Source of the DNA: Pocillopora damicornis
Lineage: Eukaryota
DNA length: 64,000 nt
Direction: 5' to 3'
Assembly (NCBI RefSeq): GCF_003704095.1
Contig: NW_020844035.1
Span: 62,001 to 126,000, forward strand
The notes beneath the pieces are model-generated. The model was given only the letters and a program-made list of their open reading frames with translations. It was not told the origin of the DNA and made no database searches. The translations under genes and the position numbers were made by a program. Position 1 is the first letter of the stretch, and the number at the start of each line of letters is the position of its first letter. Of this stretch, positions 18,316 to 21,680 are shown piece by piece.

Positions 18316-18897
18316 CTAAGCAATGGCTAGTAAACTTTCTAAGACAAATCGAAACCTTTGAATGGCTTCACGTTTGTTATCATCTCGATGATTCGTGACC
18401 AGATACATTCTACTATAAGCTTATACCAACATAACGTTCTCCGGCATTCTTTCATGGATAAATTGAAGGAAGAAAGTGTATCTTTCTGCGGGGATTCTTT
18501 CATTCCACGCGTAGTGGGGATAGACATTGTGGTGATGGGCTGCCATCCAATTGAACTACCTCCTTTCTGGTGGCGGGACTCTTTCAGGCCTGTTAGCCAA
18601 GTCTACCAGGACCGTCATCGGGGGTTCTACTCTGCAAGATGGACAAGAAGGCTGAGGTGCCTTTGCTGCTACGACTGGTACCAGTCCATCAAACGGGAGG
18701 TGTGAATCACCTGCTGGCAGCAGGGCGTTTCTTCCTCACAGGCAATTACACAAATAGTGCGGGCTCTATCTTCAGTTCCTAAAAGAAAATAAAGTGAGAC
18801 ATAGGTCTTTCCATACTTCACTAATTGACAATTATGAAAACAGAAAAAGATTGGAGTGCGACATGAACTTACCGTGAGGTGCTTGCGCTCTAATCAT
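18316..18897 (-). pseudogene. Spliced RING-finger gene next to Polinton PolB, left-arm copy
   Basis: Reverse complement of 25131-25741. ATG at 18897, same donor and acceptor, same internal TAG. Confidence 0.65.
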
Positions 18898-19230
18898 TTT
18901 GCAAAGAAATATATATATATATATCGGTATTTCCAAAAAGTCAGTGAAGGACATTGCAACATCAACGCAGTGTGATTGAATCCTTTGTCCACGAAATGTT
19001 CTTTTACCTTCAGTCAAAGTCCCAAAGGGCCTTTTTCTTGAGCTTTTGTGAATATTACATTGTGTGTGTGGAAACGTCTGTTAGGTCCCAAAGGCCTTTT
19101 TCTTGAGCGTTTTGTGAATATCACTCTGGGTGTGGATGGGTGAATGTGTATGTGTGTGAGCGTCTGTTTGGTCCCAAAGGGTCTTTTCTGCTTGAGCGTC
19201 AGTCACATTCAGGCTCTTTGCCTGATCGAA

Positions 19231-19960
19231 GGTCCATGCTGTTAAAAGGTAAGTTTCTTTGAATACACTTTACAATGAAGGAAAGAACGACGCTGCTTAA
19301 TCAATACAGCCTCTTTTGCTCGATTAAAGAAAAGGTCCATGCTATTCAAAGGTAAGTTTCTTTGAATACACTTTACAATGAAGGAACGAACAACTCTGCT
19401 TAATCGATGCAGTGTCTTTCGCTCAATTAAAGAAAGATTGCTCAGTTAAAGTCCATGCTATTCAAAGGTGAGTTAATGAAGAAACGAACAGCGCATTACA
19501 GTATACAAACTAAGAAATATTTGAAATTGTAATAATAAAACTTGTTTTTAGGTGGTTTTTTACTTACGTTAAAATGATACACGTACTATAAGTTACTTGC
19601 CATCTGAAAATTCACCGGCACCATTCATTTTCACAATTCTTTTCTTCAGCATAGCAACAAGTTGTAATAAAGGAAGGAACGAACAACTCTTTGCTTAATC
19701 AATAAAGCCTCTTTTACTCAAATAAAGAAAGAGTCCATGCTATTCAAAGGTAACAATATTGCCTCTTTTACTCAATTAAGGAAAAGGTCCATACTATTCA
19801 AAGGTAAGTTTTATTTTGATAAAGAAACAAAGAAAAAGCTGTAGGAAGCGTCGGTCACGTTTGGACTCTTTGCTTAATCAAAGGTCCAAGCTATTCAAAG
19901 GTAACAATATTGCCTCTTTTACTCGATTAAAGAAAAGGTCCATGCTATTCAAAGGTAAGT
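19231..19960 (+). repeat. Array of 7 copies of (G)GTCCATGCTATTCAAAGGT(A/G)A upstream of PolB
   Basis: Copies at 19231, 19334, 19451, 19733, 19786, 19883 and 19937. Mirror array at 24090-24830. Confidence 0.9.
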
Positions 19961-20279
19961 TTTATTTTGATAAAGAAACGAAAAAGAAAGCTGTATAAAG
20001 CGTCAGTCACGTTTGGATTTTTTGCTAAATATTTTGTTGTGCATAATATGATTGTTGATTAAATATCTGAGTGTGTGAGTGCATTTGTGCGTGAGAATGT
20101 AAATCCCTCGCAACCATTTTTCAAGTGAAAACACTTTCGAAATCCTGTCCAGACATGCCCTACCTTGCTCAAACTTGCCCACCTAATACAAAAGAAACCC
20201 TCCATTCCCCCTGAGTATTCACCTTTGATCTCCTCAGAGAACATTACATTCTAAACACACGACTTCTTTTGAACACACG

Positions 20280-21680
20280 TTAGAGAACATCACCAAAAAG
20301 AAAATTTGTTGAAGAGTTGAGTGATGAAGAGTTATTAAAGGTTGTAGGAGACATTGAGTTGAAAATGGTTGATGAGATGAGTGACGAGGAATTGTTGAAG
20401 GCTGTGAAACGCATCAAATCGCCACTCTTTGAATTAAAGTTCAGACCATGGGGCCGTGCAAATGTTAGAAGAAAAATGTGGTGGCGAAACAACGGTTTAC
20501 AGCACGCTTGACTGAAAAACGCCCACCTTCACCAGATGATAATGTTGGCGTTTCAATCACTCATGTATTAGAACGTGCGATGATTCAGCAAATCCAAAAC
20601 CAACCAGATACTCAGCCACATCACACACTTCATTTTTACATACAGGCCGAAGGCTACACGCATGTATTTCAATCTACTATAACACCAACACCAATTTTGA
20701 AACCGAACTGACTTTGATCTGTACCCCACCCTCCGGTAGTGGAAGAGGAAAAGAAAGATTCGTAGGAAGAAGAAATGTGGAAGCGTTTTTGAAAGCTAAA
20801 TATAGTGTCATACAAGTCAAGAATACAGACGAATCGTCACAATGAAGGCACGTTTGCATAAAGGTGACAGTTTGGATGGAAGACACCTGTATGAAAATTT
20901 GCGTCCTGTGCAAGCTGTTCAAGGCAAAGAACTCCATCGTTTGGCTGGTGTTCCCAAAGGACCGTGTGGATTAAAAAAATTGGAAATGTTTCAGAAAGCT
21001 TTGAGTCCTGAGTACCAGAATGTTGTCTTAACTGTAGATGAACCAGACACGAACACCTACAAAGGACAAGAAAATTCTGCTCATTCAAGTCGATCAGCAT
21101 TATGATGGCTGTACTTCGTATGGAGGATTTTTAAACAAATCCTATTTCTGTTTTGATTATGAAAAAGGATTTGATCATCCCTGTCAAGGCCGAAAATGTA
21201 CTGCCTGTTATCGAAAAGATTGTCCCGATTATGCATGCCACAAATCACCGGAACTCAGCTGTGATAAATGTCATTGTGATTTCTTTGGAACAGATTGTTA
21301 TTGACATTACAAAAGTCATCCGACAAAAACAAGTAAACCATGTGTAACATTTTCACCAAATGTACCGAATGCTGCAAAATCATTGAACACCCCCAGAAGA
21401 AGAAAAACAAAGGAGGAAAAAAACACAAATAAGTTGTCACTCAATGTCCCGCATGCCAAGAAGACGTAGATATCAGAACCCACAAATGTTTCATTCAACC
21501 TGCCAAAGAAGAGGAATGACCTCGACACTCTAAAGAAGAACGAAATGCTTGCATCAAACGATTACAGCGTCAAGGCATCCCTATGTCAGCGATGGACCCT
21601 GATGAATTAGATTTCAAAGATCCACCCATCTTTGTCTATGCTGATTACGAAGCGATGCAATCAGCTGATGGTGAACATCG
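20280..21680 (+). mobile_element. Polinton/Maverick protein-primed DNA polymerase B, N-terminal part (frameshifted)
   Basis: SVIQVKNTD, ELHRLAGVPKGPCGL, HYDGCTSYGGFLNKSYFC, Cys/His clusters, HKCFIQP and Exo I-like FVYADYEAMQ, truncated by a gap. Confidence 0.8.

What the first reader, a model, noticed from the sequence alone, without database searches (positions are those of the whole stretch)
18316..21680. Polinton-like module: spliced RING E3-like gene divergent from PolB across a repeat-rich spacer
Seen: splicing 25131-25155 to 25248 (mirror copy 18316-18897) reveals a RING-type pattern missed by the ORF track, (R)TIC..ETPCC..IH..(R)L..W..CPFCR. Two ligand positions appear as Arg (CGY), one step from Cys. 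The gene has a (TA)n tract just upstream and several AATAAA downstream, and lies head-to-head with the Polinton PolB. Established: core Polinton genes are PolB, integrase, ATPase, protease and capsids, and many DNA viruses use RING E3 ligases against host defences. Inference: this Polinton lineage carried its own intron-containing ubiquitin ligase as an accessory gene.
Basis: partly seen in the sequence, partly recalled or inferred. Interest (0 to 1): 0.7.

Follow-up and report, generated by a model that had tools for sequence, protein, structure and literature searches.

The report
Spliced RING gene in Polinton fossil
A dead, duplicated end of a virus-like Polinton element carries a broken copy of an unnamed accessory gene family with conserved intron signals and a RING finger, which likely served as a ubiquitin ligase in the active element.

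Summary
A 25-nt exon, a phase-1 GT-AG intron (92/94 nt) and a RING-like exon lie between the Polinton inverted repeat and a frameshifted PolB, head-to-head with it. Both window copies are pseudogenes: two zinc-ligand positions are Arg, a stop is shared, and copy A has further breaks. They are one insertion duplicated with its flanks, so the shared lesions are not independent. The family is real. Ten copies lie at seven places in this genome, six Polinton-linked and three head-to-head with PolB. Open-frame relatives carry all eight ligands and typical E2-binding residues, and one passes Pfam zf-RING_2. The intron position recurs in diverged subfamilies, and one database protein reads across the junction, but none of six RNA runs laid shows a splice. 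The 1.4-kb spacing and (TA)n tract are not conserved, and a close sister element lacks the gene. The C-terminal domain matches nothing. Ligase activity is inferred, not shown. Intron-bearing Maverick cargo and an E3 in a Polinton-like virus are already published; this family was not found in the papers searched. Interest 0.42.

The parts
18873..18897 (-). copy A exon 1 (25 nt, phase 1)
18779..18872 (-). copy A intron, 94 nt, GT-AG
   Evidence: no RNA joint seen
18316..18778 (-). copy A exon 2: RING plus C-terminal domain, broken (three internal stops, 1-nt frameshift, 30-nt deletion, two ligand positions Arg)
25131..25155 (+). copy B exon 1 (25 nt, phase 1)
25156..25247 (+). copy B intron, 92 nt, GT-AG
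   Evidence: the one RNA contig crossing the acceptor is unspliced
25248..25741 (+). copy B exon 2: RING (25265-25396) plus unnamed C-terminal domain; one internal stop at 25469-25471; ligand positions 1 and 6 Arg
18898..20283 (.). repeat-rich spacer between the RING gene and PolB (copy A), with 103-, 54- and 152-nt repeats and a recurring short motif
19553..19643 (-). relic of a second exon 1 and intron start of the C3321/C1300 subfamily type (mirror 24409-24504)
   Evidence: 78-84% identical to the exon 1 and intron region of those copies
20284..21680 (+). N-terminal part of Polinton PolB, frameshifted, ending at an N run
   Evidence: colinear with DNA_pol_B_2 at C670:21771-24987 and C3657
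23622..23750 (-). copy B PolB start, cut off at 23622 by unrelated coiled-coil ORFs
17815..18315 (.). inner part of the Polinton terminal inverted repeat region (copy A)
   Evidence: matches both ends, in opposite orientation, of the sister element on C670
25748..26205 (.). inner part of the terminal inverted repeat region (copy B), holding the AATAAA repeats
26208..26860 (+). pogo/Tc5-like transposon remnant inserted in the terminal repeat, shared by both copies (A side 15841-16436 and 17689-17814); outer repeat resumes near 26970-27013 and 15725-15801
   Evidence: (HTH_Tnp_Tc5 E 0.007, below cut-off)

Best explanation
The window holds one decayed Polinton end, duplicated in inverted orientation, whose slot between the terminal repeat and PolB carries a pseudogene of a Polinton accessory family that likely encoded a spliced RING-type ubiquitin ligase. 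Shown: anatomy, lesions, duplication with flanks, Polinton linkage of relatives, eight ligands in open-frame relatives, and intron signals at the same position and phase in diverged subfamilies. Inferred: in the active element the spacer would act as a two-way promoter for PolB and this gene; the host spliceosome would join a 25-28-nt start exon to the main exon; the roughly 170-residue product would bind host E2-ubiquitin through the RING and a host target through its C-terminal domain. The target, and whether it is a defence or cell-cycle factor, is unknown.
For: Open-frame relative P0017 (C4086, 44% identical) passes Pfam zf-RING_2, 29.5 bits against cut-off 27.3; P0023 scores 33.3. All 21 PDB sequence hits at E<=1 match the RING part, best Rad5 (E 0.0025) and listerin (0.0056). 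All eight ligands stand in P0017, the P0021 cluster, P0023 and the C1300 copy, with the Ile, Trp, Pro and final Arg that are recalled as E2-contact residues (Arg in all four, Pro replaced at C1300). Ten copies at 7 places: PolB start head-to-head in the window, at C3321 (three copies) and weakly at C305; ATPase next door at C1187; spacer repeats and terminal-repeat piece at C1300; two Polinton-type neighbours at C4086; nothing at C3391. Exon 1 plus donor found in 7 of 8 gene-proximal regions scanned, introns 80-94 nt, all phase 1. P0021 reads from an exon-1-like peptide straight into exon 2, while 3 of 3 cluster mates viewed (of 14 others listed) start in exon 2. Copies A and B: pN/pS 0.68, P 0.37, 147 codons, compatible with neutral decay.
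Against: No splice joint in 6 RNA runs laid (of 15 listed); contigs that reach the intron keep it. The library type behind P0021 is unknown. The window peptide has no significant RING hit. Ligands 3 and 4 are adjacent cysteines, an unusual spacing. The model is weak (pLDDT 65.8; Foldseek no hit at E<=0.001; best VIA Z 4.2). Many relatives are themselves damaged: P0033/P0036 group lacks ligand 1, P0063/P0064 lack ligand 2. Only 2 of 8 PolB N-terminal places have this gene upstream. The donor at the open-frame C4086 copy is weak and was added to the scan pattern after it was seen. No activity data.
Confidence: 0.68

Rival explanations
1. Same gene and context, but the finger is a non-catalytic interaction module: a transactivator or cell-cycle effector of the 'Oncoid' kind described upstream of adintovirus PolB.
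For: PMC8502044 section 3.2 places genes with paired CXXC and Rb-binding motifs upstream of PolB. The window subfamily has an IxCxE stretch inside the finger. The adjacent-cysteine spacing is unusual.
Against: The IxCxE stretch is absent from the other subfamilies. The finger passes a RING cut-off and keeps recalled E2-contact residues.
Confidence: 0.17
2. A host RING gene picked up with its intron and carried as passive or exchangeable cargo, like wasp and krma genes of nematode Mavericks.
For: Intron-bearing cargo beside the terminal repeat is published (10.1101/2022.07.12.499685). Presence is patchy. C3391 has no Polinton mark within the 20 kb fetched.
Against: No host parent was seen: among 30 hits at E<=0.001 in 1.84 billion representatives, the longer proteins match only the RING part or are repetitive. 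6 of 7 places are Polinton-linked. Subfamilies diverged to 29-44% identity while staying in the element.
Confidence: 0.08
3. The intron is never spliced; the short exon is a chance feature and the gene starts inside exon 2 or reads through.
For: All RNA contigs that reach the intron keep it; one database subfamily reads through in frame (P0036 group).
Against: Same phase and position in subfamilies whose exon 1 and intron sequences are unalike; P0021 joined form; exon 2 has no ATG before the first ligand in the window or at C4086.
Confidence: 0.05
4. The window copies are host-kept and make a short, one-zinc variant ending at the shared stop.
For: Both Arg positions belong to the same zinc site in the recalled cross-brace scheme; the same state occurs in database proteins P0013 and P0016.
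Against: A and B descend from one insertion; A has a stop inside the finger; no significant purifying selection; near relatives at about 80% identity keep ligand 6 and an open frame.
Confidence: 0.03

Closest known systems
Intron-bearing cargo genes of nematode Mavericks (wasp, krma; 10.1101/2022.07.12.499685, passages seen)
   Same: Intron-containing non-core gene in a variable slot beside the terminal repeat, in an element with intronless core genes
   Different: Different protein; slot is next to PolB, not the integrase; 6 of 7 places Polinton-linked against 22.7% reported for KRMA; no host family found
E3 ligase of Polinton-like virus CpV-PLV Curly (PMC6459981, passages seen)
   Same: Predicted E3 ligase as accessory gene in a Polinton-type element
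   Different: Algal-associated element; no intron mentioned in the passages; homology not tested
Adintovirus 'Oncoid' genes (PMC8502044 section 3.2)
   Same: Small cysteine-rich accessory gene upstream of PolB
   Different: Defined by LXCXE, CK2 and CR1 motifs, not by a RING; 'RING', 'ligase' and 'splic' occur 0 times in that text. Whether any Oncoid is this family could not be checked
C4HC3 RING domains such as listerin; viral RING proteins of large DNA viruses
   Same: Cys-x4-His-x2-Cys spacing and helix Trp align with listerin; nearest ESM Atlas clusters at 0.90-0.92 are mostly viral, many with RING families
   Different: Ligands 3 and 4 adjacent; long insert before the last pair; C-terminal domain without a match

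Membership tests
Polinton/Maverick (adintovirus) element | protein-primed PolB | tested here: met
   Window fragments are colinear with DNA_pol_B_2 (E 1e-18) in the sister element at 84-88% DNA identity
Polinton/Maverick (adintovirus) element | terminal inverted repeats | tested here: met
   25740-26215 matches C670:3240-3519 (-) and 25511-25957 (+), the two ends of the sister element
Polinton/Maverick (adintovirus) element | integrase, protease, ATPase and capsid genes | tested here: inconclusive
   Not found next to the window copies. In the sister: rve E 6e-11, Peptidase_C5 E 6e-4 below cut-off; ATPase and capsid named from recalled motifs, no Pfam hit at E<=0.001
Polinton/Maverick (adintovirus) element | 6-bp target-site duplication and intact termini | tested here: inconclusive
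   Outermost repeat missing in the window; sister's left end lies at an N run
RING finger domain (family level) | eight zinc ligands | tested here: met
   P0017, P0021 cluster, P0023, C1300 copy
RING finger domain (family level) | passes a curated RING profile | tested here: met
   2 of the 5 full-finger relatives scanned pass zf-RING_2 (P0017, P0023); P0021, P0024, P0047 score 23.3-23.4, below 27.3
RING finger domain (window copies) | eight zinc ligands and open frame | tested here: not met
   Six of eight ligands, internal stops; Pfam E 0.26
RING finger domain (family level) | cross-brace fold | tested here: inconclusive
   Residues 8-67 align to RING domains at Z 3-4.2 only; model pLDDT 41-75 there
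RING E3 ubiquitin ligase | E2-contact residues (recalled: Ile, helix Trp, Pro, Arg after the last Cys) | tested here: met
   Present in the full-finger sequences printed; the residue roles are recalled
RING E3 ubiquitin ligase | E2-dependent ubiquitin transfer | not testable with these tools
   needs an assay
Spliceosomal intron | GT-AG ends, pyrimidine tract, conserved position and phase | tested here: met
Spliceosomal intron | joined form in RNA | tested here: inconclusive
   0 joints in 6 runs; P0021 joined form of unknown library type
Adintovirus Oncoid | position upstream of PolB with paired CXXC | tested here: met
Adintovirus Oncoid | conserved LXCXE/CK2 motif | tested here: not met
   IxCxE only in the window subfamily, read by eye

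The most novel reading that the evidence does not exclude
These Polintons have a swappable early-gene slot between terminal repeat and PolB, filled by at least two element-specific RING ligase families. The spliced one joins an atypical RING to a new substrate-binding domain, subfamilies replaced each other in place (relic exon 1 in the spacer), and the repeat array with many TCF-like sites ties replication and ligase expression to a host developmental signal.
Probability: 0.2. Interest if true: 0.65.

Novelty: new member of a known kind. Interest (0 to 1): 0.42.

Why it matters
Vertebrate Mavericks are reported as intronless (PMC8097293), and surveys call genes from open reading frames, so short spliced accessory genes are likely missed. 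A Polinton-bound RING family, kept across subfamilies at 29-44% identity, would be a host-manipulation gene of the kind true viruses carry. Its substrate would name a host pathway that limits Polintons, probably in corals (host group inferred from run labels). The window copies themselves are fossils.

Tried and rejected
RNA: window stretch with runs X1-X4 and C4086 stretch with X1, X3, X6, X11 gave no splice joint; all are low-depth contigs that may hold DNA, so this is no proof of absence, and no RNA editing could be judged. Scans of viral contigs (43 pattern matches) and metagenome contigs (85) confirmed no relative. Foldseek against PDB and BFVD gave 0 hits at E<=0.001; the VIA wide search had no Z>=5 among 48,161 chains; the C-terminal domain was not folded alone. 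ESM Atlas gave no usable hit for residues 55-160. Rejected: two independent insertions (flanks and the transposon in the repeat are shared); fixed 1.4-kb spacing; (TA)n as a conserved signal (not seen upstream of the relatives printed); AATAAA count as independent support (tandem repeat inside the terminal region, also matched by the gene-less sister). No complex was predicted. Three look-ups of earlier findings returned nothing. Literature: six searches showed no description of this family. Passages only were seen of PMC8502044 (plus section 3.2 and the text of Fig. S2; its slides and tables could not be read), PMC11131425 (plus its functional-profile section; the 4-kb supplement text had no hit and its figures were not seen), PMC11071296, PMC6459981, PMC8097293, PMC12220804, 10.1101/2023.08.22.554363 and 10.1101/2022.07.12.499685. 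Repbase entries, GenBank adintovirus annotations and subscription papers were not searchable, so prior annotation is not excluded.

Full report
Observation. In copy B an ATG at 25131 opens a 25-nt exon that ends at GTAAGT; 92 nt later a pyrimidine-rich acceptor leads in frame into exon 2, 25248-25741. Copy A repeats this on the minus strand with a 94-nt intron. The finger has six of eight ligands, with Arg at positions 1 and 6 in both copies. Both share an in-frame stop after the finger, and copy A adds two stops, a frameshift and a 30-nt deletion. Read through with X, the peptide is not significant for RING (E 0.26).

One insertion, not two. 17689-20424 and 26322-23622 are 88% identical, and the inverted match continues through 14807-16436/27941-26289 and 14454-14801/28763-28416. 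A pogo-like remnant interrupts the terminal repeat at the same point on both sides. The shared lesions therefore predate the duplication. Between the copies pN/pS is 0.68 over 147 codons, not different from neutral (P 0.37, low power). Whether the duplication is real or two haplotypes in a gap-rich scaffold is open.

It is a Polinton end. The frameshifted frames at 20284-21680 have no meaningful Pfam hit, but they are colinear with a DNA_pol_B_2 domain in two related elements, C670:21771-24987 and C3657. The C670 sister also has an rve integrase and a weak adenoviral-type protease hit. The DNA behind the RING gene matches both ends of that sister in opposite orientation. So the gene lies between the terminal inverted repeat and PolB.

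The family. The read-through peptide finds 12 matches, which are 10 copies at 7 places of the genome (counts are lower bounds). One has an open frame: P0017, 44% identical, with C-x2-C, CC, x4-H-x2-C, C-x2-C, passing zf-RING_2 at 29.5 bits. Database searches gave 15 of 19 and 24 of 55 candidates, all unnamed, and 30 hits at E<=0.001 among 1.84 billion representatives. Four lineages keep all eight ligands (P0017, P0021 cluster, P0023, C1300); others are damaged. Relatives at about 80% identity to the window copy keep ligand 6 and read openly where the window has its stop. All 21 PDB sequence hits fall on the finger, led by Rad5 and listerin. The Ile, Trp, Pro and final Arg recalled as E2 contacts are present. 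The C-terminal 85 residues are well conserved in the family but match nothing. The model is only moderate, pLDDT 65.8.

Context of relatives. Head-to-head with the PolB start: the window, three copies at C3321 (about 0.5-0.6 kb for the best one) and, weakly, C305. Behind an ATPase on the same strand: C1187. With the same spacer repeats and a terminal-repeat piece: C1300. Between a second RING gene and a GRF zinc-finger gene, both with homologues in Polintons elsewhere: C4086, an indirect link. No mark: C3391. Conversely, of 8 places with the PolB N-terminus, 2 have this gene upstream, 1 has the second RING type (weak, E 4e-5), 2 clearly lack both and 3 cannot be judged because of gaps or truncation. 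The close sister and a terminal fragment at C2365 lack the gene's interval. It is a patchy accessory gene, and the 1.4-kb distance is particular to this copy.

The intron. A scan of 8 gene-proximal regions found a short exon with a phase-1 donor in 7, with acceptors at 80-94 nt in 6; one donor is weak and was put into the pattern after being seen, and one C4086 copy is out of frame. C1300 and the remaining C3321 copy show donor and acceptor by eye. Nothing similar was seen at C1187 or C3391; C305 was not examined. The C3321-type exon 1 and intron give no BLAST match to the window gene's own, yet position and phase agree. P0021, from a 1.3-kb Logan contig, runs from an exon-1-like peptide directly into exon 2, while the 3 cluster mates viewed begin in exon 2. 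Against this, 6 RNA runs laid show no joint, and contigs that reach the intron keep it. Splicing is likely but not observed.

The spacer. It is built of 103-, 54- and 152-nt repeats. One 8-mer occurs 6 and 7 times in the two spacers against 0.05 in shuffles, which follows from the repeats; its likeness to a TCF site is recalled and untested. At 19553-19643 lies a relic exon 1 of the C3321 type, at the distance from PolB where C3321 has its gene, while the window's own gene is closer to the C4086 type (44% against 32%). The simplest inference is that one subfamily replaced another in this slot, which explains the longer spacer.

Mechanism. Inferred: a two-way promoter expresses PolB and a small spliced RING protein that recruits host E2-ubiquitin and uses its C-terminal domain to pick a host target. 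Confidence 0.68. The main rival is a non-catalytic finger of the Oncoid kind (0.17). The window copies cannot make the protein.

Known and new. Intron-bearing cargo beside the terminal repeat is known from nematode Mavericks, a predicted E3 from a Polinton-like virus, and small cysteine-rich genes upstream of adintovirus PolB. Vertebrate Mavericks are described as intronless. The coral polintovirus survey does not contain 'ligase', 'ubiquitin' or 'intron' in its main text. Six searches did not show this family, but deposited annotations and some supplements were out of reach. Verdict: a real, unnamed Polinton accessory family seen here as a fossil; new member of a known kind; interest 0.42.

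Noticed in passing
L006:61-522 (-); also G000 C4086:14073-14537, C49:27539-27955, C1420:244495-244731: A second RING-like family with the same adjacent-cysteine spacing (P0018; 29% identical to P0017 over the finger; Pfam E 0.011). It follows the ATPase in two Polintons and faces PolB head-to-head in a third; 8 matches in the genome.
   Followed up: partly
window 40953-42527 (+) and 43232-43654 (+): Catalytic part of another Polinton PolB (DNA_pol_B_2, E 2.6e-6), broken and partly duplicated across a gap, with a convergent ORF at 42508-42849 also found behind PolB in two sister elements.
   Followed up: partly
window 21961-22833 and 23068-23661 (-): Coiled-coil ORF, duplicated at 99% across an N run, that cuts copy B's PolB at 23622. 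It resembles a LINE ORF1 protein (recalled); Pfam gave only coiled-coil hits.
   Followed up: no
G000 C670:3035-26090 (L082, L083, L048, L049): A degraded sister Polinton about 36 kb before the window, with terminal repeats, integrase, protease-like, ATPase-like, capsid-like and PolB genes; 220 nt of unrelated GC-rich sequence stands where the window has the RING gene.
   Followed up: yes
window 6932-14119, 30423-37265, 37031-39963, 50853-54551: Much of the window consists of 88-94% identical segmental duplicates, direct and inverted, and a family of 70-80% alike short repeats of unknown nature.
   Followed up: no
window 10743-11246 and 34014-34460 (+): ISXO2-like (IS1595 family) transposase fragment, E 3e-10 for the first; the second is its duplicate.
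   Followed up: no
L006:2601-3113 (-); G000 C670:4945-5091 and 8459-8791: GRF zinc-finger gene (Pfam E 2e-9) near Polinton ends; RNA contigs of runs X3 and X6 cover it.
   Followed up: partly
window 1208-1798 (+): Broken frames with a RING-like finger and further cysteine-rich parts, probably a host TRAF-like remnant (name recalled; RING profiles E about 0.001, below cut-off).
   Followed up: no
proteins P0033, P0036 and cluster mates: A widespread subfamily (cluster of 91) in which exon 1 and a shortened intron read through in frame and the first ligand is lost.
   Followed up: partly
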